From the UHGV virus genome UHGV-0293664: DNA of 64,000 nt, one strand, 5' to 3'. Of this stretch, positions 1,375-54,356 are shown in pieces. Position 1 is the stretch's first letter, and every line of letters starts with the position of its first letter. A program made the position numbers and the translations under genes. The notes below the pieces were generated by a model. That model made no database searches. It had not been told where the DNA came from and saw only the letters and a list, made by a program, of their open reading frames with translations. Source of the stretch: a virus.

Positions 1375-4300
1375 TGCCAATTGCAATGATTGATAACATC
1401 GTTGCTTCTGCAAGATCTTCAAGTTATGACTGGAACGCATCCAAGGCAGCTCTGGCTGACAGCCTGAACACTGTTACCACCAGAACTCTGGATAAGATTT
1501 TTGAGGGCAACAAATCTTACAGAAGTCAGCAAGATAGACAAAAGCTTCTCAGATCTTCTGCTGCACCCTGCTCTGTAGTGTATGGGAAGACACGCACATC
1601 CGGATTGCTTGCGTTTTTGGAGCAGGACAGAGACAGAACCCTCCATTGTGCTATTGTTCTTGCCAATCATCCTCTAGAAGGTATAGAAGACATACTCATC
1701 GACGGTAATCCTATTTCCTCGTATGGAGATCTGGTATCGTGGGAGCTACATAACGACAGAAAAACATCTGATCCTTTCATGGGTACACACTGCCCATCAT
1801 GGTCACCTGACATGATAGGTAGAGGGATCAGTTGGCTACGTGCCAGCTTCAGGTTTGACCCTAACAAGTTTCCTTTTGGGTTGCCAAACGTTACACTCGT
1901 TAAGGTTGGTAAAAAATGCTATGATCCTCGCATCAGTAAAGAGGTGTATACCAATAACGCGGCCTTGGTGATTCTAGACTATTTAAGAACGTACCTTAAA
2001 TGTCCTGACGAAACCATCAACTGGGAGTCCTTCAAGGAGGCTGCTAACATATGCGACGAGGCGGTAAAAAACGCAGACGGAACCAGTGAGCGCCGATACA
2101 CCATTAATGGCGAGTTTGACATGGACGAGGCTCCGGCAAGCATTATGGCAGAAATGCTGAAAGCTTGTGGCGCAGATCTCAGCTATGTAGCTGGTAAGTA
2201 TGGTTTGCTGGTTGGTGCATACTATGGCCCGGCAACAATGACGCTGAGTGAGGATTGTGTCTGTGGTGAGGTTAAGATCTATCCGGAAGCCTCGTTTGAC
2301 AAAAGATCCAACACAATAACTGGCAGATTCACCAGTCCGACCAAAGGGTATTCTGAAACAGATTTTCCATCAGTGTTTGTCCCAGAGTGGATAGAGAAGG
2401 ATGGAGAAAGAAAGATAATCGATATAGACTACCGCTTTGTTACCAGCCCTTATCAAGCTCAGCGTGTTTCTGCAATATTTTTAAGACGTGCTAGAGCTGG
2501 CAGGATTATTGAAGTCACCTGCAATATGCGAGGTTTTAAATTTAAACCTGGCCGTTACGTTACAATGAATCTCCCAAGTATTGGTATAGTGGGCCAAGAA
2601 ATGAGGGTTCTTGAGTGGGAGTTCACCAAAAAGGGCGGTGTCAAGGTAAAACTTCGTCAAGATGCTAAAGAGTGGAATGATGCCACAGGGCAACTTCCGG
2701 ATTCTGGCGATGTAGATATTCCGATATCCCCATCCGGTGTAGCTCAACCGCAAAACTTCAGATACTCCGTCCTCCAAGCTGGGGAAATAACTCACGGTGT
2801 TCTGGCTTGGGACAACGTTGGGACTTACGCTCAAAATATTGTGCAGGTAAGAAAGAACGGAGAGATTGTTTGGACAGCACAGACAGTTGAGCAGTTTGTC
2901 CGAGTAGAAGGCTTGACCAAAGGGTCATACACAGCAACCGTGGTTGCAACATCCTATAAAGGTGGTGTATCTCCAGAAGCGTACTGCGAGTTTAACATTC
3001 AGGCACCTGAAGCTCCGGTTTCTGTAGAGGTTAAGCAGGGATATTTCGCTATCACCTTGATTCCGCATAGTAGGGATTTAGCAAGCGTAAGCACCCAGTA
3101 TGACTTTTGGACATCTGGTATGACAAGGTTGCCAGACACCAGTGATGCTACCGTTACTTCAAAAGCCACCCGTATGGGTGTTGGTTCAACTTGGACGTCT
3201 GAAGGTCTCCAGAACGATAAGGTTTATTATTGGTATATTCGAACCACAAACGCTTTTGGTAGCTCTCAGTTTGTAGAATGCGCTGCACGCTGCTATACCT
3301 CTATTGAGGATTTGATGCCTCAGATAGATGCTGAATTCAAAAAGACAGAAACTTATAAAGAGTTGATGAGCACTTTGGATTCCTCTATTGAAGAGGTTGA
3401 AAATCGTGTCACAGAACTTAACAGGTACATGGATGGTAGGGTAGATGAAGCGTTCCAACAACTTGGGGACAGAATAGGTGCGGTAGTTACAGAAACAACT
3501 CAGAAGTTTGAAGATGTCAATGGTAACATTACAGCGCTGGATAGGAAACTTGTTGCTGCACAGAACAAATTCACCAACGATCTGAACACTGAAAGTGGCA
3601 GACTGGCATCTCTGATCGAGACAACCAATAAAGCAACTACTGATCTTCTGAACAAAAAGACAGAGGCTTTAGATGAGAAATTGGTTGCCGCCAAAGGTGA
3701 GCTGGTAGAGCAGATAGAGGGAGTTGAGAGCGGGTATTTAGCCGGAGATAAAACTCTGGATGGTAAGATCAATACTCAGAGAACAGAACTTGACGCAAGC
3801 ATCTTGAGCACTAACCAGGCAACTGTGGATCTTTTGAACAGGACATCTGAAACTCTGGATCAAAAGATCAGTCAGACAAACGCGACGGTATCTAAAAACT
3901 ATACCACCCTGGATGGCAAGATAACCACCGCAAAAACTGACCTCAACACCTTGATTGCCAATACCAACAAGGCCACCACTGACTTGTTGAATCAGAAAAC
4001 ATCTGCACTGTCAGAGCAGATAACTTCTGCACGTGGGGAGATTTCTACCAACAAGCAGGCGATTGATGCTTTGGATGGAAAACTGACTTCCACAAAAACA
4101 GCGCTGGATGCTACAATTTCCGATACCAACAAAGCCACTGTGGACCTTATCAACGGCACAGCGTCAGCTATTCGTCAAGAACTTGCTGTTGCTAAGCAGG
4201 AGATCATTGATGATGTTGGGGATGTGTCCGAGATCAGGGCTGCAGTAGCTACAACATCTAAGGCTGTAACCGACTTGGAGGGTAAAGTAAATGCTCAGTG

Positions 4301-17700: not shown

Positions 17701-20398
17701 GGGCAATGCCGTTGACCCTTATATCATCATGACTGCACTGAGATCAAACATGGACGGGACATCCATGTCTATGCAAATTCCGGTAACAAACGGGTACAAA
17801 CGTGTTGTGATGATCATTAAGTGCGACTTAATAGGTAAACAAGTTCTTGCAGAAAACGGGACATCCACACATCCTTTTGAGATTGCTCTGCACTATCAGT
17901 TTGCTGACTCGCCTTTTGCAGGTGATAAGAGAATATCTGATACAGATGCACAGCGTTGTAAGAAAGTATTGTTGGGTGCAGGTTGGTGGTGGTATGAGTT
18001 TGATTTAACAGACAAATTCACCGACACGTCTAAAGTTGTAACAGGACTTCGTCTAGACCTTGGCGAGAACATGCACAAAGCTGTTTGTGATGGCACCTAT
18101 GGTGACCCTACAATATACCTAAAATATATTTCTTTTGAGCATCCGGAAGATGTTGTCTACGGTCCAAAACTGAGATTGTTTGGCAGTTGGATTGCAAAAG
18201 ATAGGGTAGGCATGGGTAAGAAGGTGAGAGGGTTCTTGGTTGATGCAGGAACAGAAGACATGCTGGTTAATGCAGTATGGCCTGAATTACCTGGGACTCA
18301 GTGGAACAACTCAGCCAAATCTATAAACTGGTTTAACATCCACAGGGCTATGTGGACCACTAACTGCTACTTGTGGAGAGAGCTTAACGATCAGGCTTTT
18401 GGCTTCAGTGATGGCAGGAGGATGGCGATCATTTGCTGGACAACGCTGCAAAGATGCTATGACCATGACTACGAGATTGGTGGTAGGGCATGGAAAAATA
18501 TCAGGGACAGAATCATAACCAATTTTGCAGACGACAACGGTGGTGGAGCACATAACTTTGGCACAAGCCGACTTATCCATTTGAATGGATCCTCGGCCTA
18601 CAAGAAAGAAGGTTACTCAGGGTCCATGATCGAGTGGGGTCTGGTGAAAGATGCTCGCGTATTGATGGGCCAGCAACTTGCTGCCGCAATAGGCCCAAGC
18701 GCAGTGCAGTCGGTTAAACCAGCGTGGTTCGATATCCCATTGTGGTCACCAGGAACACCGGGAACTGCTGCAATCAACCCTACCACTGGGGATCTAGAAA
18801 TATCCTGGGAGGACTTGAAGCAGGTCGGTGGTTGGGATAAAACGGGGTATCAGGTCCAGTGGTGGAGGGCTGATGGATCTTTAGCCTCTGATGAGTTTGT
18901 TAAGGACAATTTCTACACCATGTCCTCTGCAAAAGCACAGCAATTATTTGGTCAGGCCACTCCGTCAACGATCACCATGTCTATGTGCTGTAAAGACAAC
19001 AGGACTGGAGCTTTGGGGCCAAGGGTTGCTAAGGTTTTCTCAGGTATTAAATGGAATCTCCCTGTTCAAAGTGTTTCATGGAAGCAAATAGGTGATAACA
19101 AGCTGCTGGTTACCCCTGCCTGTCAGTTCAACGCAACTCTTAACGTTGATCCTGCTGTTGCGGCAAACTCAGCTAAAGCTTCTGACTTCTCTGTGTCTAA
19201 CACTGCTATGGCAGATGTGAGGAAGATTGACACACTGAACGCCAGAATTACCTGTAAAAACACTTATGGCACATTCCAAATCATCAACAACTTCACAGAT
19301 GCTGATTCTAAGGTAGTAAGGACAGCAAGCCAGACTCTGAGTTTAGGGACTCTGGCCTATGCGGCCCTGATCACCGAACAGTCGGCAACACTCCAAGGAG
19401 GCGGTGTAGGCAAGTCCATTGCAACACCTGTGTGGAAGCCGAATGAGTGGGTTGTGTTTGATTTGACTGTGGACTTCTCCAGTGATAATAACTGGACATG
19501 GGTAAGGAATTGTTTGTCACAGTTGATGGGCGGTCCAAGCTCCATTAGCGATAGTCACGACTCTACTGACCCGAGCGTGTTCCAGGTGGGTAAAACTCAC
19601 CCAGAGACTGGAGAAACGTTGCCTGACAGGAAGTATGCTTTGGTTTGCATCTCTTACGGGAAGGCAGATGTCACCTTCTCAGGGACACACACTTATAACG
19701 GAACCTACAACTTCTCAAGGAAGTATAGTCTCAAAGCAGGGAACATTGTAGACGAGGTTGGTGTGCTGTATAATCCAGGTAACGGCATAGGGATTGTGGG
19801 TGGTCAACTGCAGATGCAGGAACCTTCTATTACACCTTCCAACGTATCCGGGATTAGAAAGACTTGGGAAAGTAGTAATACCAACATTGCAACAGTGGAT
19901 GCCACCACAGGACTGGTAACATTTAAAGCCACTGGGAATGTCACCATAAAGTTTGTAGTTACAGATGATGCAGGCCGCAAAACGTCTTCAACATCATTCA
20001 CTGTCAAACAGATGGCACCTCAGTGGTTTATTTGGGAAGGAAATCCTCTTGACGGGGCTTACCCTAGACCTGCAGGAACGTCTAATATGAGGGTCTTTAC
20101 CGGTCCGGTCATGAACAATCCGACCACAACCACCAACCCTACATTTTTTGGTGCTTACATACCTGAAATCATTGGCCTACCAAGGAACCAGATACAACTG
20201 CTTTTCGGAGCAGGTGTTGATGGTCTAGCCACCTTTGGGTACAGTGACAACATTGATGCAGCCAGAAGCTCGGGTTGGATTGGATTTAAGTTCCAGTGGA
20301 ACCCTGGTGGTAGAACATTAGGTCTTGCAAGCATAGGTGTTATGCTACCTGGTAACCAGCAATACCATCTCGAAGCTTATACAAACTTCCCTAGTTAA
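14771..20398 (+). CDS. Giant tail fibre / adhesin-like structural protein with Ig-like domain
   Basis: 1875 aa; Trp/Asn/Gly-rich; Big_2-like segment near residue 1700 (TGLVTFKATGNVTIKFVVTDDAGRK). Confidence 0.6.
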   Translation: MLPIPLLKLGRHFLDKRGGIKELAVLSYPIDNSDGTSTTVSYVNSLAILFDDGQLNITGYNRFGECRTGGLDTINYPNEAAWNVDHVWRADRAFVIRTFDNQFFYIGCTAGLIGSDAAGGNDVCVREWTPLPEQIVKGLHLDTHPERLIEVMGGINNTIWVIAEAEGTGILNLYGSGNNTYGSLHVDKNQHATPVKIGETSENPETGPWKNPSINCEVHDNSVIFGGPRGFWIAGYDFLRNNSRNDLVWPPVQITRNDLRGIPADEEWKGFMCGPNGAIIATQRMHRPDDQQLVNVFYGQDVWGDDTWRSLNITYTHEVIMARGYGTSGIFFNNGTKQYRGFSRNLCNDIGAQSANNSPRANFIHYQALATAKYVEQRLPVSWTESVYFQGIHREGFLGTFTVVNGKLWWSGIPRGSFAGSNNLFGGRLNSQGFTEVPENWYKNVPVDSWDVDDIFDVNGVSSVSNIYIGDTVKMKLKPQPEGATFIIDKIELVNAAGTVVTDANYQFSTNWNHGGANEVVVTQYNRNVNRRGLYSVKITYHDKHGTGRTHTTRTLNWNTIVPAYPSNGKWHTVGRNKQFHVNDTVYFGLNGTQPAVEGDTSYMVRLHRMDAGSVTYDVTQEIYDQRRNTYNNLVQTQAVWEFNPNGRGGKMLQVNEQNGTSLTVHKHPDPWPDPGKPHPGARTLKIVSHDVGYFGIRWEATVRYADGTTNNIGITLGGTSEDNSLKIAYTPRGISIDNMDVVRNGYGDVNVKVTLGEHLGGERIIMYAFDHDPRTNGTYANQAWSYLINAPGPNTKEFYYGMKRDVCKKTGTHDWIAICVKDERTAWDEPVNRWFIGIPTRSDKYVAEYIVCMGGTNLNMCWNEDANKYSDYDYMRDYSCNQWFNQSTGYPPRQARVNPAIFTDTQVFLTKQANKVQTFKNKYDPNKWFYNCYGAFFWGPGELPGGGSCLNEATYASDYIMGQVKKYKIIPGPETLGNAVDPYIIMTALRSNMDGTSMSMQIPVTNGYKRVVMIIKCDLIGKQVLAENGTSTHPFEIALHYQFADSPFAGDKRISDTDAQRCKKVLLGAGWWWYEFDLTDKFTDTSKVVTGLRLDLGENMHKAVCDGTYGDPTIYLKYISFEHPEDVVYGPKLRLFGSWIAKDRVGMGKKVRGFLVDAGTEDMLVNAVWPELPGTQWNNSAKSINWFNIHRAMWTTNCYLWRELNDQAFGFSDGRRMAIICWTTLQRCYDHDYEIGGRAWKNIRDRIITNFADDNGGGAHNFGTSRLIHLNGSSAYKKEGYSGSMIEWGLVKDARVLMGQQLAAAIGPSAVQSVKPAWFDIPLWSPGTPGTAAINPTTGDLEISWEDLKQVGGWDKTGYQVQWWRADGSLASDEFVKDNFYTMSSAKAQQLFGQATPSTITMSMCCKDNRTGALGPRVAKVFSGIKWNLPVQSVSWKQIGDNKLLVTPACQFNATLNVDPAVAANSAKASDFSVSNTAMADVRKIDTLNARITCKNTYGTFQIINNFTDADSKVVRTASQTLSLGTLAYAALITEQSATLQGGGVGKSIATPVWKPNEWVVFDLTVDFSSDNNWTWVRNCLSQLMGGPSSISDSHDSTDPSVFQVGKTHPETGETLPDRKYALVCISYGKADVTFSGTHTYNGTYNFSRKYSLKAGNIVDEVGVLYNPGNGIGIVGGQLQMQEPSITPSNVSGIRKTWESSNTNIATVDATTGLVTFKATGNVTIKFVVTDDAGRKTSSTSFTVKQMAPQWFIWEGNPLDGAYPRPAGTSNMRVFTGPVMNNPTTTTNPTFFGAYIPEIIGLPRNQIQLLFGAGVDGLATFGYSDNIDAARSSGWIGFKFQWNPGGRTLGLASIGVMLPGNQQYHLEAYTNFPS

Positions 20399-37439: not shown

Positions 37440-37742
37440 ATGAAACGTTATAAACCATACACTTTTGAAATCGATTTCGAACTTGACGATATGTTTACTG
37501 TGGAGGCTCAGGCAGTTGTCCAGTTGCCAGACCCGGAGTGCCGTGATTCTGATGTTGACTATTACGGATTTAGACAAATTACCGATGTGCATGTTTACCA
37601 CAACGGTGAAGAGGTGGACTTCTACAAATTGCCAAACGATATGCGCCACTCAATTTACAAACGTGCAGCCCGTGAACTAGATTCCTATCTGGATGCAGCG
37701 ACGACAGCAGCTGCATTTGCCGAAGAAGTGGGAGGTTTCTGA
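37440..37742 (+). CDS. Small acidic protein
   Basis: 100 aa; Asp/Glu-rich. Confidence 0.5.
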   Translation: MKRYKPYTFEIDFELDDMFTVEAQAVVQLPDPECRDSDVDYYGFRQITDVHVYHNGEEVDFYKLPNDMRHSIYKRAARELDSYLDAATTAAAFAEEVGGF

Positions 37743-41421: not shown

Positions 41422-42156
41422 ATGAACGAGTTCAGAGATCACTGTGTAGCCAATCACTTGTGGTCAGAGATATTGGAGTATGACGGTCAAAATCTTTTTT
41501 GGAAGATAGACATTCTGGCAGGTAGCGGTGTAGGATATGTTAAAACTTCAGCAGGCTCTAGAGCTGACAAGGGGCAAGATGCTGATGGCAGGCCTGTGGT
41601 CAGTCTAGGAAAGCATTGCACTAAAGGTGCCCACGTCATAATTTGGGAAATGTTTAACGGTCCTGTACCGGAAGGGTATGAGGTTGACCACATCAAGGAG
41701 ATAAGAGAAACAGGTGGTGTGGCTGATAACAGTATTCAAAATTTGCAACTGCTCGAGCCTACAGATAACAAAAAGAAAAGTTGCAAGATACCTCGTAGTA
41801 ACAACAAGTCTGGTAGGGTCGGGGTGCACTATTCTGAAGAAAGAGAGGCATGGATAGCTCAAGGCACAGATTCTGCAGGTGAAAGAGTCTGGCTAGGCCA
41901 GTACAGAACTTTTGAAGAGGCAGAGTGGGCAAGAAAGTTCTTCGAAGATAATGGTTTTTCGCACAAGAGTGGAAGAGCCGTGCAGTATAATAACACCAGC
42001 GGTTGCTCAGGGGTGAATTGGGATAAAACCCATGAAAGATGGGTAGCCAGAATTTATGTAGATGGTAAAAGGAAATGCCTTGGGTATTTCAAGAACAGAG
42101 AAGATGCAATAGCTGCAAGAAAGAGTGCTGAGAAGAAACAGGAGGAGACAGTATGA
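41422..42156 (+). CDS. HNH homing endonuclease with AP2 DNA-binding domains
   Basis: EVDHIKEIRETGGVADNSIQNLQLL HNH motif; two AP2-like repeats; inserted between primase-helicase and polymerase. Confidence 0.7.
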   Translation: MNEFRDHCVANHLWSEILEYDGQNLFWKIDILAGSGVGYVKTSAGSRADKGQDADGRPVVSLGKHCTKGAHVIIWEMFNGPVPEGYEVDHIKEIRETGGVADNSIQNLQLLEPTDNKKKSCKIPRSNNKSGRVGVHYSEEREAWIAQGTDSAGERVWLGQYRTFEEAEWARKFFEDNGFSHKSGRAVQYNNTSGCSGVNWDKTHERWVARIYVDGKRKCLGYFKNREDAIAARKSAEKKQEETV

Positions 42157-46137: not shown

Positions 46138-46392
46138 ATGAAAATTACTTTGAAGCCAGAATGCGTTGCAAATGACCGAGCTTTTAAAGATTGCACAGTC
46201 GGTGCAATTTATGAAGCGGAGTTTTGTGAGAACCCTCTGGTAAAAGCCCTTCTGGAAGAAGGGGCCCCTTTATCACAAGAAGAGATTGATGAGCTGGAAA
46301 ACTCAGCACAGTGCCTTACCTTTAAAGATGACGAAGGAGATTCTGTCTGGTGCACTGTTAATGAAGTAGTTTTTGTAAAACCTGAACATTAA
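46138..46392 (+). CDS. Small acidic protein
   Basis: 84 aa; AAGGAGA RBS; FKDDEGDSVWC motif. Confidence 0.5.
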   Translation: MKITLKPECVANDRAFKDCTVGAIYEAEFCENPLVKALLEEGAPLSQEEIDELENSAQCLTFKDDEGDSVWCTVNEVVFVKPEH

Positions 46393-46395
46393 TAC

Positions 46396-46424
46396 TTGAC
46401 AACAGTGATGGGGCCTAATATAAT
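46396..46424 (+). promoter_or_regulatory. Consensus sigma70 promoter
   Basis: TTGACA, 17-nt spacer, TATAAT; -10 flanked by GGGCC/GGCCC inverted repeat. Confidence 0.6.
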
Positions 46425-50176: not shown

Positions 50177-50602
50177 ATGACCTATGAAATGCCAAAACTG
50201 ATTCGTGACGATGCCCAAAACGCCCACACCTTTATCATGGGCAAACGCATGGATATTATTTGTCATAAAGATTTCTGGGAAGGAAGTTACTTCACAGAGT
50301 ATTTTGGTAAACTGGACAATGGTCTGCTGATCCAGTTCTACACCGATGCGGAAAACAACATTCACTGGGAGTTCGAAACTGAAGATATCCATAAACTTTT
50401 CACCTTCCTCGGTATTAAGGTTGAGGCCAAGTTTGAAGAAGGTGAGTGCGACGATTGTGGATTCTATGAGGTAACAGATTTCTATCTCCCGAGTGGTGAG
50501 AACCTTTACTATGAAAGCCACTTCGGTAACTCCAATATGCCACAGTGCTGGACTGAGTTTTTTGAAATTGCGGAAGAGGAGCTGGCATACCGTGATTATT
50601 GA
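50177..50602 (+). CDS. Hypothetical protein
   Basis: 141 aa; GGAG RBS. Confidence 0.5.
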   Translation: MTYEMPKLIRDDAQNAHTFIMGKRMDIICHKDFWEGSYFTEYFGKLDNGLLIQFYTDAENNIHWEFETEDIHKLFTFLGIKVEAKFEEGECDDCGFYEVTDFYLPSGENLYYESHFGNSNMPQCWTEFFEIAEEELAYRDY

Positions 50603-51050
50603 TACTGTAGAGGGGGATTTAATCTCCCTTTTTAAGAGCGGTGCTGGTCACCTGATCCACGGTTGCAACTGCTTCCACACAATGGGCAAGGGGATAGCAA
50701 AACAGATCGCCCGTGAGTTCCCTCAAGCACTGGCAGCTGACAAAGAGACCAGACATGGTTGCCTAAGTAAACTGGGCGCGTTCTCAAGATGGGAGCACTT
50801 ATCTCCGATAGGTATTGTCTACGGAATAAATCTGTATACTCAGTTCTACCCAGGGCCTAATGCTGAATATTTCTCAATCCTGAAAGGCTTTGAGCGAGTC
50901 AATGAGGTATTCGAGGGATCGACTTTACCATTCTACATCCCTAAGATCGGGTGCGGCATAGGCGGTTTGAAGTGGGAACACGTAGAGGACGTTATTAACC
51001 TTGCCACTTTCGACATAGATATTGTCGTGGTGGAGTACAAAAAGTGTTGA
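50592..51050 (+). CDS. Macro-domain (ADP-ribose binding/processing) protein
   Basis: GTG start after GAGGAG; GAGHLIHGCNCFHTMGKGIAKQI and IGCGIGG resemble macro-domain glycine-rich motifs. Confidence 0.5.
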   Translation: MIIDTVEGDLISLFKSGAGHLIHGCNCFHTMGKGIAKQIAREFPQALAADKETRHGCLSKLGAFSRWEHLSPIGIVYGINLYTQFYPGPNAEYFSILKGFERVNEVFEGSTLPFYIPKIGCGIGGLKWEHVEDVINLATFDIDIVVVEYKKC

Positions 51051-51075
51051 CGACAATCTTCTGAGGTGATATAGT
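51047..51075 (+). promoter_or_regulatory. sigma70-like promoter
   Basis: TTGACG, 17-nt spacer, TATAGT. Confidence 0.55.
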
Positions 51076-51104
51076 TTCCACAACAACTAAGAGAGGAGAG
51101 CACT

Positions 51105-51275
51105 GTGGAGACTAAAATCTTAATTCTTGCTGTGGTAGATACAACCGAAGGAGCTATATTCGAATCTGCAGGAGGGTATTTCTACCTACCATACGGAAAA
51201 AGAACTTCCGAGCCAAGTAAAGATTCAATCCTCAAAGTGTTCCCGTGTGCTTTCTGGCTGGAGATTTTGGTATAA
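51105..51275 (+). CDS. Small hypothetical protein
   Basis: 56 aa ORF below track cutoff; GTG start after AAGAGAGGAGAG. Confidence 0.3.
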   Translation: METKILILAVVDTTEGAIFESAGGYFYLPYGKRTSEPSKDSILKVFPCAFWLEILV

Positions 51276-51301
51276 GATTGCAGAGGATTTGGGAGAGAAT
51301 T

Positions 51302-51496
51302 ATGAGAAACAAGAAAGAACTTTACTCTGGTGAGTGGATCAACGATCAACAGGTGGGAGAGGTAACCTGCTTCCGATGTTTTACCAGGTACAATCTTAAA
51401 ACTGCACCAAAAAGTGTTCCAAAGACTGACGGTTATTACATAAAAGAACCTCATTGCCCAAAATGTAAATGCCGATTGTACTGGAGCAATCTGTAA
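51302..51496 (+). CDS. Small zinc-ribbon protein
   Basis: 64 aa; CFRC...CPKCKC pattern; GGAG RBS. Confidence 0.45.
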   Translation: MRNKKELYSGEWINDQQVGEVTCFRCFTRYNLKTAPKSVPKTDGYYIKEPHCPKCKCRLYWSNL

Positions 51497-51500
51497 GAGG

Positions 51501-51529
51501 TTGACATCTGAAAACTGCAGTGTATAATA
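51501..51529 (+). promoter_or_regulatory. Consensus sigma70 promoter
   Basis: TTGACA, 17-nt spacer, TATAAT. Confidence 0.6.
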
Positions 51530-51762
51530 TACGCATAAACTAACAGAGAGCGATGTATTATGGTAATTTTTAACCGGGATGGTATCATAGTTAGACAGCA
51601 CCCGTTCCTTGAATACTATCAAATTGAGCAATGGTGCTACGGGGATTGCAGTCACTCCTATGGACAAAGTTGGGGGGTATCGCACAGTTTTTGAATCAAC
51701 AGATCTTGACAAAGTAAGACAGAAAGTTTTAGAACTTCTTAACAACAAGTGAGTATCGTGCC

Positions 51763-52095
51763 ATGGTAACATTGGAAAGACGTAAAGCTATCGCCGCCAC
51801 ACTGGCAGACATCTTTTGGGATTGCAACTTAAAAGATACCCGAAATTGTGGCGCATCTGTAGATGTATTATTCCCACGGCCCACCATTGTTGCAATGGGC
51901 AACCTGCTCGATGTGGTATATGGAGCATGGGACAAGGAAGGTGGATTCTATATCTGGCAACCTGACTACGGGACCTGGAAAGAGGTTAGTGGTTCTGCGG
52001 ACTTCACTCCTGCAGAGGCTAAAATGGATGGCTGGAAAATCTATGTCGGTAACGACATGGAACTGAAAGGCGAAATTGTTTACTGGTTACCTTAA
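51763..52095 (+). CDS. Hypothetical protein
   Basis: 110 aa; weak RBS. Confidence 0.45.
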   Translation: MVTLERRKAIAATLADIFWDCNLKDTRNCGASVDVLFPRPTIVAMGNLLDVVYGAWDKEGGFYIWQPDYGTWKEVSGSADFTPAEAKMDGWKIYVGNDMELKGEIVYWLP

Positions 52096-52115
52096 GAAAG
52101 TGCAGGAGATAAAGT

Positions 52116-52361
52116 ATGAACAAAGGGTGGACATTTGTAGACGGCGTTAAAAACATGCCTCTAGGAAAGTATATTGTAGCCATGGCAGATGAGAATGGCA
52201 AGGTGGATTTCGGAGTTTGCGAGGTTGTTCTTGCAGGATCTGGTGACTATGCTCACAAAACTGGGATAATTAACGGTCATTTCTACTTTGATTACAACCC
52301 TGTTGTGGCGTATATGGCTATGCCAGAGTTAGAGCTCCCAAAGGAGGGTGCAGATGTTTAA
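52116..52361 (+). CDS. Small protein, dispersed paralog family
   Basis: 81 aa; CAGGAGA RBS; ADENGKVDFGVC motif. Confidence 0.5.
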   Translation: MNKGWTFVDGVKNMPLGKYIVAMADENGKVDFGVCEVVLAGSGDYAHKTGIINGHFYFDYNPVVAYMAMPELELPKEGADV

Positions 52362-52551
52362 GCTTAAATCTGCATGGAACATCGCTGTGGGGGACGAGAT
52401 CCGTATCCCAGGTGGAAAGACCATTATGAAGATATCTCGTATCGAGTACGAAGGTGATCGTGTATTTCATATCTTTGCAGAAGATGGTCGAGAAATTTAT
52501 ATACAGGCAGGCTCTCACATCTATATCTGTAAGAAAGGGGACGACAAATGA
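52354..52551 (+). CDS. Small hypothetical protein
   Basis: 65 aa from ATG 52354 with AAGGAGGG RBS. Confidence 0.45.
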   Translation: MFKLKSAWNIAVGDEIRIPGGKTIMKISRIEYEGDRVFHIFAEDGREIYIQAGSHIYICKKGDDK

Positions 52552-52880
52552 CAGAGATCATCGTTTCAACTGCAGGGTATGTATTCCTGACAATCATTGC
52601 GTTGGCTATTCTGGTGGCGGTGTATGGATTTGTTATCCTGCCTATTCTTGAGACATTTAGTTTGTGTCGGTGTTGGAGAAAAGCTTACGGACCACAACCG
52701 TGGAAAGACTGGTTCCATTTGGTGCGTATAGCGTTCTCTTATGCCTATGACCACTCTAGCAGTGCATGCGTAACTGGGTACCATGCCTACAACTGGAACT
52801 GGGAAGGGCTGGGGAGATGGACTGTTACAAAAACTATACCCTTACGGTTGTACAAAGGAAAGAACACACTGGGAGCCTGA
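52548..52880 (+). CDS. Small membrane protein
   Basis: 110 aa; two N-terminal hydrophobic helices; ATGA overlap. Confidence 0.5.
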   Translation: MTEIIVSTAGYVFLTIIALAILVAVYGFVILPILETFSLCRCWRKAYGPQPWKDWFHLVRIAFSYAYDHSSSACVTGYHAYNWNWEGLGRWTVTKTIPLRLYKGKNTLGA

Positions 52881-52909
52881 TATTTTAAGTTATCAGGTTG
52901 CCAGAGATC

Positions 52910-52945
52910 AGGAGGATTTCTAAAATGGATTTCCTCCTTTTGATA
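52910..52945 (+). terminator. Possible terminator at operon end
   Basis: AGGAGGA...TCCTCCT stem with 15-nt loop then TTTTG. Confidence 0.35.
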
Positions 52946-53191
52946 TTTTACCTGCCAGGATATTTTAAAATCCTTAGAAAATCAGAAAATGGATCGAAAA
53001 CTAAAATGGATTTTTCAGGGCAGGCACGACGAGATGAACCACTCATCCTGTCGTTTGCACCATATTCCAGACCACCATTACAGATTTCCCGCACATGCTT
53101 ACATCCTTCTACTGGAACTTCCTCCGCTTGCCCTTGACCTTTTATGGTAATAATCCAACCACTATCTTGAAGTTGCGATGCAGCTTTTCAG

Positions 53192-53354
53192 GTACTCGAT
53201 CTGTTTTTCGTTTCAAAGATTGAATTTTCTGAAAATTTTTCTCGATAAATTTCTCAGTACTCGATCTGTTTTTCGTTTTCTGAATCGGATTTTCTGGAAA
53301 TCGTTCCGGCTCTCGACCTGAAATTTTTGGGGACGAAATCGATTTTTCGTTTTC
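53192..53354. repeat. Iteron-like direct repeats, three copies
   Basis: Repeat unit TCGATYTKTTTTTCGTTTTC at 53192-53214, 53257-53280 and 53334-53354 in AT-rich non-coding DNA. Confidence 0.7.
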
Positions 53355-53481
53355 AGAAATGGATTTTTAAAATTTCTATATGGGAATATTTTATGGGATA
53401 CTGTTTTATAGGAAATTGTTACGGAGGGTAATTAGCGTGCTAATTAAATTTATGAAATGCGAGGAGTTCTCATTTAGAATT

Positions 53482-53500
53482 TTGAATGATAATCATTCTC
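53482..53500. promoter_or_regulatory. Fur-box-like palindrome A
   Basis: TTGAATGATAATCATTCTC matches 15 of 19 positions of the E. coli Fur consensus; contains perfect palindrome GAATGAT-A-ATCATTC. Confidence 0.4.
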
Positions 53501-53514
53501 GTTTGCAGAATAAC

Positions 53515-53538
53515 GGGCACCCCCGGTGATTGTCTCCC
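53515..53538. repeat. GC-rich conserved element, copy 1
   Basis: GGGCACCCCCGGTGATTGTCTCCC; related copies at 53655 and, inverted, 62331. Confidence 0.6.
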
Positions 53539-53617
53539 GGCCCCTGTTGCCCCGGCTTGTTATTATAGTATCACACAGGACAAAGAAAGCAAGGACTTTT
53601 TGCATAAATTTTTAGAC

Positions 53618-53636
53618 GATAATGATAATCGTTCTC
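53618..53636. promoter_or_regulatory. Fur-box-like palindrome B
   Basis: GATAATGATAATCGTTCTC matches 17 of 19 positions of the Fur consensus. Confidence 0.5.
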
Positions 53637-53654
53637 ATTTCATGCAGCGCCCAT

Positions 53655-53692
53655 CCCCGGTGGTTGTCTCCCCCGTCACCGGTGCCTGCCGT
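53655..53692. repeat. GC-rich conserved element, copy 2
   Basis: CCCCGGTGGTTGTCTCCCCCGTCACCGGTGCCTGCCGT; reverse complement of 62331-62378 is near-identical. Confidence 0.6.
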
Positions 53693-53844
53693 CCTTTCGA
53701 TATGTATATTGTGCCACCTGGCGGGGCCGCTGTCAACACTTTTCAAAAAATTTTTCTAACCTGATGCGCTAACCGTTGCAACCTGGCGGGGCCAGCCTGG
53801 CAGGTCCGCGTTATAAAGTAAACAGCTACGGAAGAGGTACAAAA

Positions 53845-53994
53845 ATGAAAGGTAATGCTACTCGCCTGGAAAATGTAGTAATTGATGATACGGAAGCTAT
53901 CGCCCTGGTCGAGAAGGTTGAAACGGAAGCGCGGGAACATAAAGAAGAGTACGAAAAAATGGTAGTTAACCTGGCGGGGGCGATTCTATCATAA
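53845..53994 (+). CDS. Small hypothetical protein
   Basis: 49 aa from ATG 53845 with GAAGAGG RBS; first gene after the non-coding island. Confidence 0.4.
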   Translation: MKGNATRLENVVIDDTEAIALVEKVETEAREHKEEYEKMVVNLAGAILS

Positions 53995-54013
53995 AAATAA
54001 TTTAAAATAATCG

Positions 54014-54042
54014 TTGACAGCTCGGACAGCTATTGTTATTCT
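54014..54042 (+). promoter_or_regulatory. sigma70-like promoter
   Basis: TTGACA, 17-nt spacer, TATTCT. Confidence 0.5.
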
Positions 54043-54094
54043 TATCCTCGCAAGGTGAACAACACCACACCAATTAACAGAGAGGATAAAAATC

Positions 54095-54292
54095 ATGAAC
54101 GCCTACGGAATTAAAGTACGTCGCAACACCCGCCAGGTGGTCACCGATCAAATGGTTTGCCGGGTGGATGTAACCATCAACAACGGGCAAGGCCTTTATA
54201 AATTTCGTCGCGGTCATAGCTATACCCTGCAGCAGCTTAATCGTTGCGCCCTGACAAAAGGTCAGATCAACCACTGGTTTAATAAAAAATAA
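54095..54292 (+). CDS. Small basic protein
   Basis: 65 aa; GAGAGGA RBS. Confidence 0.5.
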   Translation: MNAYGIKVRRNTRQVVTDQMVCRVDVTINNGQGLYKFRRGHSYTLQQLNRCALTKGQINHWFNKK

Positions 54293-54295
54293 ATA

Positions 54296-54324
54296 TTGAC
54301 ATGTAGTCTGAAACAAAATATACT
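54296..54324 (+). promoter_or_regulatory. sigma70-like promoter
   Basis: TTGACA, 17-nt spacer, TATACT. Confidence 0.6.
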
Positions 54325-54356
54325 GAAAGCACAAAAGACACTAAGAGGATAAAATC

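What the first reader, a model, noticed from the sequence alone, without database searches (positions are those of the whole stretch)
51501..51762. Consensus promoter followed by a roughly 230-nt leader without a convincing ORF
A perfect TTGACA-17-TATAAT promoter at 51501-51529 is followed by about 230 nt before the next well-supported start at 51763. Only short ORFs without an RBS are present. This could be a small RNA, a regulatory leader or a micro-peptide gene.
Basis: seen in the sequence. Interest (0 to 1): 0.4.

Follow-up and report, generated by a model that had tools for sequence, protein, structure and literature searches.

The report
Known phage promoter, frameshifted small gene
The "empty leader" behind this consensus promoter is an ordinary, already catalogued 63-codon phage gene (rV5 ORF205 family) that looks ORF-less here only because one extra G in a run of Gs breaks its reading frame.

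Summary
The window is a Vequintavirus (rV5-like E. coli myophage). The promoter is real as sequence: TTGACA 51501-51506, a 16-nt spacer (not 17), TATAAT 51523-51528. It is conserved in relatives and is already annotated in phage rV5 as sigma70-type promoter "P205". The ~230 nt behind it are not a leader or small RNA. They are the homolog of rV5 ORF205 (rv5_gp200; phrog_6957, function unknown; also RB49ORF258c in Krischvirus). This is a 192-nt, 63-aa gene with a GAGAG Shine-Dalgarno-like motif 9 nt before ATG 51560, ending at TGA 51750-51752, 10 nt before the next gene. All 12 homologous loci I read keep one frame. In a spread sample of 60 of 178 phage records, 59 have the 192-nt length. Substitutions are mostly synonymous in that frame (117:50, against 18:152 and 21:151 in the other two). 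In the window a private extra G (G6 at 51673-51678; the closest relative has G5, most have GGGGA) splits the gene into a 44-aa and a 47-aa ORF. No Rfam hit, no unusual RNA stability and no terminator-like site support an RNA element. I cannot tell whether the extra G is a real inactivating mutation or a homopolymer miscall. Verdict: already known, low interest.

The parts
51501..51528 (+). Sigma70-type promoter, equivalent of rV5 'P205': -35 TTGACA 51501-51506, 16-nt spacer, -10 TATAAT 51523-51528. The inferred transcription start is near 51535, which would give a 5' UTR of about 25 nt.
   Evidence: 2 perfect sites against 0.08 expected. The identical sequence is annotated as 'Sigma70-type promoter; P205' in NC_011041 and listed in Table S4 of PMC3606486. 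Both hexamers are kept while the spacer sequence differs in L007 and L011. The start site is inferred, not measured.
51546..51550 (+). Shine-Dalgarno-like GAGAG, 9 nt upstream of ATG 51560.
   Evidence: It reads GAGGG in DrSchubert and APECc02, and GAGAG in FFH2, EC22.5-2 and V18.
51560..51752 (+). Homolog of rV5 ORF205 / rv5_gp200 (phrog_6957; 63 aa in relatives). Here it is 193 nt instead of 192 and is frameshifted. Removing one G restores MVIFNRDGIIVRQHPFLEYYQIEQWCYGDCSHSYGQSWGYRTVFESTDLDKVRQKVLELLNNK.
   Evidence: Relatives annotate a 192-nt CDS at this position. Alignment. Translations. Synonymous:nonsynonymous codon differences are 117:50 in this frame, against 18:152 and 21:151 in the others. 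Variable columns by codon position are 15/10/34.
51673..51678 (+). G6 run holding the extra base. Most relatives read GGGGA; the closest, EC22.5-2, reads GGGGG.
   Evidence: No phage record reaches 99% identity over the 58 nt around the run. No related IMG/VR or metagenome contig carries the G6 allele.
51560..51694 (+). The 44-aa reading frame that this DNA would actually yield. It is the N-terminal 39 residues of the family plus VSHSF.
   Evidence: This exact product is not on record in the public gene collection.
51609..51752 (+). The 47-aa TTG ORF. Its last 25 codons (YRTVFESTDLDKVRQKVLELLNNK and the stop) are the C-terminal part of the family in its native frame. It is not an independent gene.
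51302..51496 (+). Upstream gene, homolog of rV5 ORF206. It is a small zinc-binding protein whose stop lies 4 nt before the -35 hexamer.
   Evidence: Pfam PF23903 Phage_zn_bind_2 at E 8.1e-23; phrog_4864; annotation in relatives.
51763..52095 (+). Next gene downstream, homolog of rV5 ORF204 (110 aa, phrog_11918). It starts 10 nt after the ORF205-family stop codon and is probably on the same transcript.
   Evidence: Co-transcription is inferred from the absence of a terminator-like site.

Best explanation
This is a standard early-type phage transcription unit. A host sigma70 promoter (the rV5 'P205' equivalent) starts an mRNA with a 5' UTR of about 25 nt. That mRNA encodes the 63-aa ORF205-family protein, followed by the ORF204, ORF203 and further homologs. 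In this genome one extra G in a G-run (G5 to G6 at 51673-51678) shifts the ORF205 frame after codon 39. Translation from ATG 51560 would therefore end at 51694 as a 44-aa truncated product. The region looks ORF-less for that reason alone. Shown here: the sequence features, their conservation, the coding-type substitution pattern, and that the extra G is private to this sequence. Inferred: promoter activity, the transcription start, co-transcription with downstream genes, and the function of the protein. The protein is predicted to be a four-stranded beta-sheet plus a C-terminal helix. It has no characterised relative, so the likeliest role is a small, dispensable accessory protein. Whether the extra G is a genuine mutation (I estimate about 55%) or a single homopolymer miscall (about 40%) cannot be decided from sequence.
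For: The window is a Vequintavirus, with 119 phage records at 90-98% identity. Relatives annotate a 192-nt CDS exactly at window 51560-51752. The alignment shows a single extra base in the G-run. All 12 homologous loci read are uninterrupted (11 of 63 aa, plus V18 with an altered C-terminus), and 59 of 60 sampled records have a 192-nt span. Synonymous:nonsynonymous differences are 117:50 in the ORF frame, against 18:152 and 21:151; third-position variation dominates both upstream and downstream of the G-run. The promoter is annotated in rV5 as P205, with the same spacer sequence. Perfect consensus sites are enriched, 2 against 0.08 expected. Both hexamers are conserved with different spacers in L007 and L011. 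Evidence against an RNA element: no Rfam match, fold z = +0.96, no terminator-like site in 51529-51763. The G6 allele is private. It is the only private frameshifting indel in an annotated CDS across the roughly 61 kb aligned with DrSchubert; the other three candidates are shared with other phages.
Against: There are no transcript or protein data for this phage or for rV5 at this locus. P205 is a prediction in the literature, not a mapped start. The function of the ORF205 family is unknown: no Pfam hit, no PDB fold match (best E = 1.0), and only uncharacterised viral proteins in BFVD. The structure model rests on 5 sequences (pLDDT 80.9). Only 60 of the 178 records were inspected for length.
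Confidence: 0.9

Rival explanations
1. The extra G is a sequencing or assembly artefact, a homopolymer miscall. The real phage would then carry an intact 63-aa gene identical to that of EC22.5-2.
For: The ORF differs from EC22.5-2 by this one base only (99.5% over 193 nt). The change lies in a homopolymer. The allele occurs in no other phage record and in no related contig. The family is otherwise conserved under purifying selection.
Against: The rest of the window shows no other private frameshift in an annotated CDS across about 61 kb. That argues against an error-prone assembly. Independent, apparently real disruptions of the same gene exist in metagenome contigs: G4 to G3 at the same run in L018, and a 2-nt insertion in L019 seen on 3 contigs. 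Loss of the gene is therefore tolerated or recurrent.
Confidence: 0.4
2. The extra G is a genuine mutation. ORF205 would then be a recently inactivated pseudogene, an accessory early gene that is dispensable on the isolation host.
For: The assembly is clean elsewhere. The same gene is broken independently in other lineages. V18 has a 2-nt shorter version with an altered C-terminus. No substitutions have accumulated relative to EC22.5-2, which fits a very recent event.
Against: It cannot be told apart from a single miscall. The allele is seen only once.
Confidence: 0.55
3. The region is a functional non-coding RNA or a structured regulatory leader for the gene at 51763.
For: A strong promoter is followed by 234 nt without an intact long ORF in this particular sequence.
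Against: There is a coding substitution pattern in one frame across the whole stretch and an intact ORF in relatives. There is no Rfam match at E up to 1. The MFE is no better than shuffles: z = +0.96, with 166 of 200 shuffles folding at least as well. There is no terminator-like site. In Krischvirus the gene sits without this promoter, directly behind another CDS, so what is conserved is the ORF and not a leader.
Confidence: 0.02
4. The G6 run is a site of programmed or phase-variable +1 frameshifting. Full-length protein would then still be made at a regulated level.
For: A P-site tRNA-Gly on GGG can re-pair perfectly one base downstream in GGG_G. The shifted reading gives exactly the family sequence ...SWGYRT... 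(mechanism from general knowledge of +1 slippage). The same run also varies in length in another lineage (L018).
Against: The shift is not conserved. The other homologs examined encode the protein in one frame, mostly with GGGGA, which is not slippery. The 0-frame A-site codon GUA is not a rare or stop codon of the kind that usually drives efficient +1 shifts (general knowledge). No stimulatory element was found.
Confidence: 0.03

Closest known systems
Escherichia phage rV5 promoter P205 and ORF205 (rv5_gp200, YP_002003702.1); Kropinski et al. 2013, Virol J 10:76 (PMC3606486)
   Same: The promoter sequence is the same (TTGACATCTGAAAACTGCAGTGTATAAT). The gene order is conserved, with the ORF206 homolog (zinc-binding) upstream and the ORF204 homolog downstream. 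The nucleotide identity over the gene is 96.4%.
   Different: The window carries one extra G in the G-run, so the 63-aa frame is broken into 44-aa and 47-aa ORFs.
Escherichia phage EC22.5-2 contig OR845172.1 (closest sequence)
   Same: It is identical over the gene except for one base. The promoter and SD-like motif are identical.
   Different: EC22.5-2 has G5 and an intact 63-aa ORF. The window has G6.
RB49ORF258c / RB49p260 and homologs in Krischvirus (T4-like Straboviridae)
   Same: It is the same 63-aa family at 83-85% nucleotide identity, among small early-region genes. The similarity was already noted in the rV5 paper.
   Different: There is no consensus promoter immediately upstream. 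The gene follows another CDS at 23 nt with its own GAGG motif.
phrog_6957 (PHROGs v4, unknown function)
   Different: The family has no assigned function. The window copy is frameshifted.

Membership tests
Sigma70-type promoter (rV5 P205 equivalent) | -35 TTGACA and -10 TATAAT hexamers with a 16-18 nt spacer | tested here: met
   12 of 12 hexamer matches with a 16-nt spacer. There are 2 perfect sites in the window against 0.08 expected.
Sigma70-type promoter (rV5 P205 equivalent) | Intergenic position upstream of a gene on the same strand, conserved in relatives | tested here: met
   The site lies between the stop at 51496 and ATG 51560. It is identical in rV5, where it is annotated P205. The hexamers are kept in L001-L003, L006, L007 and L011-L013, with differing spacers in L007 and L011.
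Sigma70-type promoter (rV5 P205 equivalent) | Experimentally mapped transcription start or RNA polymerase binding | not testable with these tools
   The rV5 paper predicted its promoters by consensus search only.
rV5 ORF205 / phrog_6957 small-protein family | Full-length sequence similarity to the family profile | tested here: met
   E 6.7e-43, residues 1-63 of 63, for the sequence with one G removed. Identity to the proteins of relatives is 84-98%.
rV5 ORF205 / phrog_6957 small-protein family | Conserved genomic position (synteny) | tested here: met
   The flanking genes are the same in DrSchubert, APECc02, FFH2 and rV5.
rV5 ORF205 / phrog_6957 small-protein family | Uninterrupted reading frame of about 63 codons | tested here: not met
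   The extra G at 51673-51678 shifts the frame; the ORFs are 44 and 47 aa. The locus is a family member by descent, but as written it is a pseudogene or a sequencing error.
Small RNA / cis-regulatory leader (riboswitch, attenuator) | Match to a described RNA family | tested here: not met
   Zero Rfam matches at E up to 1 in 50500-53000 on both strands.
Small RNA / cis-regulatory leader (riboswitch, attenuator) | Thermodynamic stability above background, or a terminator or attenuator hairpin before the downstream gene | tested here: not met
   z = +0.96 against 200 shuffles. No terminator-like site in 51529-51763.
Small RNA / cis-regulatory leader (riboswitch, attenuator) | Conservation pattern that is not codon-like | tested here: not met
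   Variation is concentrated at third codon positions (15/10/34). Synonymous changes dominate in one frame only.
Programmed ribosomal frameshift site | Two-frame arrangement conserved among homologs | tested here: not met
   All 12 homologous loci read are single-frame. In the sample of 60 records, 59 have a 192-nt span.
Programmed ribosomal frameshift site | Slippery sequence that allows tRNA re-pairing in the new frame | tested here: inconclusive
   GGG_G permits +1 re-pairing in principle (sequence). There is no pause codon, and no stimulator was identified.

The most novel reading that the evidence does not exclude
The G-run inside the ORF205-family gene is a recurrent length-variable switch: G6 here, G5 in EC22.5-2, and G4 to G3 in an independent Krischvirus-like contig. 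It would turn an early accessory gene on and off within phage populations, or allow low-level +1 frameshifting. That would be a phase-variation-like mechanism in a lytic phage.
Probability: 0.04. Interest if true: 0.35.

Novelty: already known. Interest (0 to 1): 0.07.

Why it matters
It matters little biologically. Both the promoter (P205) and the gene (ORF205) were described for the type phage rV5 in 2013, and the gene's function remains unknown. The practical value is for annotation. This genome should carry a frameshifted or pseudogene ORF205 homolog at 51560-51752 rather than an empty intergenic region or two spurious micro-ORFs, and the G-run should be checked against the reads. It also illustrates that a "promoter followed by ORF-less space" in a densely coding phage genome is most often a broken small gene.

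Tried and rejected
1. Exact 18-mer scan of IMG/VR for the G6 allele. The two hits, L004 and L005, proved to be unrelated sequences that share only the 18-mer by chance.
2. A 30-nt degenerate G6 pattern in JGI metagenome contigs gave 0 hits.
3. An exact-product look-up of the 44-aa truncated ORF found nothing on record.
4. Rfam at a permissive threshold gave no hit. tRNA/tmRNA scan of the whole window found none.
5. The RNA fold of 51535-51765 was not more stable than shuffles.
6. Pfam for the 63-aa protein gave no hit.
7. An AlphaFold model (pLDDT 80.9) was searched against PDB. Nothing reached E <= 0.001 and the best E was 1.0. BFVD returned only uncharacterised small phage proteins, so no function could be assigned.
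8. The long minus-strand ORF 51182-51772 (196 aa) was considered as an alternative gene and rejected. Its stop-free run is 201 codons here but only 83-97 in rV5, FFH2, L006 and L007. The variable sites also fall at plus-strand third codon positions.
9. I tested whether the window is generally rich in homopolymer errors. The other three in-CDS non-3n indels against DrSchubert (20144, 53745, 57307) are shared with other phages, so they are not private.
10. Two family searches failed on a coordinate slip and were repeated. One script failed on a file name.

Full report
**What the window is.** A 901-nt stretch around the finding matches 119 phage records at 90-98% identity. Nearly all are Vequintavirus, the rV5-like E. 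coli myophages. The same holds for a 20-kb stretch. The neighbourhood is a run of small plus-strand genes, as annotated in DrSchubert, APECc02, FFH2 and rV5.

**Checking the observation.**
- The promoter is present: TTGACA at 51501-51506 and TATAAT at 51523-51528.
- A perfect TTGACA-N16-18-TATAAT occurs twice in the window (the other is at 46396). Shuffles give 0.08 on average, and none of 100 shuffles had two.
- The next intact annotated start is ATG 51763, as stated.
- Between promoter and that start, this sequence holds only a 44-aa ORF (51560-51694, ATG) and a 47-aa ORF (51609-51752, TTG) on the plus strand.
- The claim that these ORFs lack an RBS is not accurate. GAGAG lies 9 nt upstream of ATG 51560, and reads GAGGG in DrSchubert and APECc02.

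**What the region is.**
- Relatives annotate a 192-nt CDS (63 aa) that maps exactly to window 51560-51752. It is bas50_0096 in DrSchubert, APCEc02_031, FFH2 ORF186 and rV5 ORF205 / rv5_gp200.
- The alignment shows that the window has one extra base in a G-run. The window reads GTTGGGGGGTATCG and most relatives read GTTGGGGATATCG.
- The closest relative, EC22.5-2, reads GTTGGGGGTATCG (G5). It is otherwise identical over the whole gene.
- The simplest history is therefore a synonymous GGA-to-GGG change, followed by insertion of one G.
- Removing one G restores a 63-aa protein that matches phrog_6957 over its full length at E 6.7e-43.
- The 44-aa ORF is the N-terminal 39 codons plus five out-of-frame codons. 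The last 25 codons of the 47-aa ORF are the native C-terminus.

**Is the 63-codon frame really coding?**
- All 12 homologous loci I read keep one uninterrupted frame. They comprise six phage records and six IMG/VR contigs, at 84-98% protein identity. Eleven encode 63 aa; V18 has an altered C-terminus (see below).
- In a spread sample of 60 of the 178 matching phage records, 59 have a 192-nt span against the window's 193. The exception is V18, with 190 nt and a 67-aa annotation.
- Codon differences from the repaired window sequence are 117 synonymous to 50 nonsynonymous in the ORF frame. In the other two frames they are 18:152 and 21:151.
- Variable columns fall 15/10/34 by codon position. The third-position excess holds both before and after the G-run.
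- The gene also occurs at 83-85% nucleotide identity in Krischvirus (RB49ORF258c). There it directly follows another CDS and has no consensus promoter. What is conserved is therefore the ORF, not a leader.
- The rV5 paper already lists ORF205 as a conserved hypothetical protein similar to RB49p260.

**The promoter.** The identical 28-nt element is annotated in the rV5 RefSeq record as "Sigma70-type promoter; P205". It also appears in Table S4 of Kropinski et al. 2013. That paper predicted 33 such promoters by consensus search, not by experiment. Across relatives both hexamers are kept, even where the spacer sequence differs (L007, L011), which supports function. A start near 51535 would give a 5' UTR of about 25 nt; this is inferred.

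**Tests of the RNA reading.** Rfam gives no match at E up to 1. The 231-nt stretch folds no better than its shuffles, with z = +0.96. There is no terminator-like site between promoter and 51763. The long antisense ORF (51182-51772, 196 aa) is not conserved as an open frame in rV5, FFH2, L006 or L007.

**Is the extra G real?**
- The G6 allele is private. No phage record reaches 99% identity over the 58 nt around it.
- The two IMG/VR 18-mer hits were unrelated DNA. A metagenome scan found nothing. The 44-aa product is not on record.
- I aligned the window to about 69 kb of DrSchubert sequence; roughly 61 kb of the window aligned. There were 56 indels, almost all intergenic or multiples of three.
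- The only non-3n indels inside annotated CDSs were a compensated pair at 4273/4278, 20144, 51672, 53745 and 57307.
- The alleles at 20144, 53745 and 57307 are shared with other phages.
- The G6 is therefore the single private frameshift, which argues against a generally error-prone assembly.
- The same gene is broken independently elsewhere. One case is G4 to G3 at the same run in a Krischvirus-like metagenome contig (L018). Another is a 2-nt insertion in a 137,975-bp Vequintavirus contig (L019).
- I put a real, recent inactivating mutation slightly ahead of a lone homopolymer miscall, at about 55:40. Only the reads can decide.
- Programmed +1 frameshifting is mechanistically conceivable at GGG_G. 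It is not conserved and has no supporting features, so I give it about 3%.

**Function of the protein.** Function is unknown. There is no Pfam hit. The AlphaFold model (pLDDT 80.9, built from only five sequences) shows four beta-strands and a C-terminal helix. No PDB fold match reaches significance; the best E is 1.0. BFVD returns only uncharacterised small phage proteins. From its position among small promoter-proximal genes shared with T4-like early regions, it is most likely a small, dispensable accessory protein. This is inference only.

**Verdict.** The sequence observation is essentially right, with the spacer corrected to 16 nt and an SD-like motif present. The interpretation as a leader or small RNA is not supported. 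The locus is the already described rV5 P205 promoter plus an ORF205-family gene, which carries a private one-base frameshift in this genome. Novelty: already known. Interest: low.

Noticed in passing
window 46396-46424 (+): This is the second perfect consensus promoter in the window (TTGACA-N17-TATAAT). It lies in the gap right after ORF 46138-46392 and ahead of the next plus-strand gene.
   Followed up: partly
window 41422-42156 (+): A 244-aa ORF sits between the primase/helicase and the DNA polymerase gene. It has no counterpart in DrSchubert: about 735 bp are present only in the window. It looks like an HNH/AP2-type homing endonuclease by eye, and APECc02 annotates an H-N-H homing endonuclease in this region. 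I did not run it against Pfam.
   Followed up: partly
window junctions near 37440 and 49330: DrSchubert carries a putative N6-adenine methyltransferase (bas50_0071) and a putative homing endonuclease (bas50_0089). Neither has a counterpart in the window at these junctions. This suggests presence/absence mosaicism of mobile or accessory genes.
   Followed up: no
window 51182-51772 (-): A 196-aa antisense ORF spans three plus-strand genes. Its stop-free run is 201 codons here, 167-181 in close relatives, and only 83-97 in rV5, FFH2, L006 and L007. It is therefore a shadow ORF and not a gene.
   Followed up: yes
L018 1501-1671 (ENA ERZ27284560 contig) and L019 1501-1659 (ENA ERZ27290372, 137,975-bp contig): These are independent frameshifted copies of the same small gene in public metagenome assemblies. 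One has G4 to G3 at the very same G-run in a Krischvirus-like context. The other has a 2-nt insertion after codon 26 in a Vequintavirus contig and is seen on 3 contigs.
   Followed up: partly
L014 1501-1692 (RB49) versus window 51560-51752: The ORF205-family gene is shared between Vequintavirus and Krischvirus (T4-like) at 83-85% nucleotide identity, while its upstream context differs completely. That points to horizontal exchange of a small gene cassette. The rV5 paper had already noted the similarity.
   Followed up: partly
window 52881-54356: This stretch of about 1.4 kb is poor in ORFs. It has many small indels relative to DrSchubert, several promoter-like sites and a weak terminator-like hairpin at 53323-53360. 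Only two short, weak tandem repeats were found. Gene calls here differ between relatives' annotations.
   Followed up: no
L013 401-604 (phage V18): V18 has a 190-nt version of the gene, 2 nt shorter near the 3' end. It is annotated as a 67-aa protein with an altered C-terminus that overlaps the next gene.
   Followed up: partly
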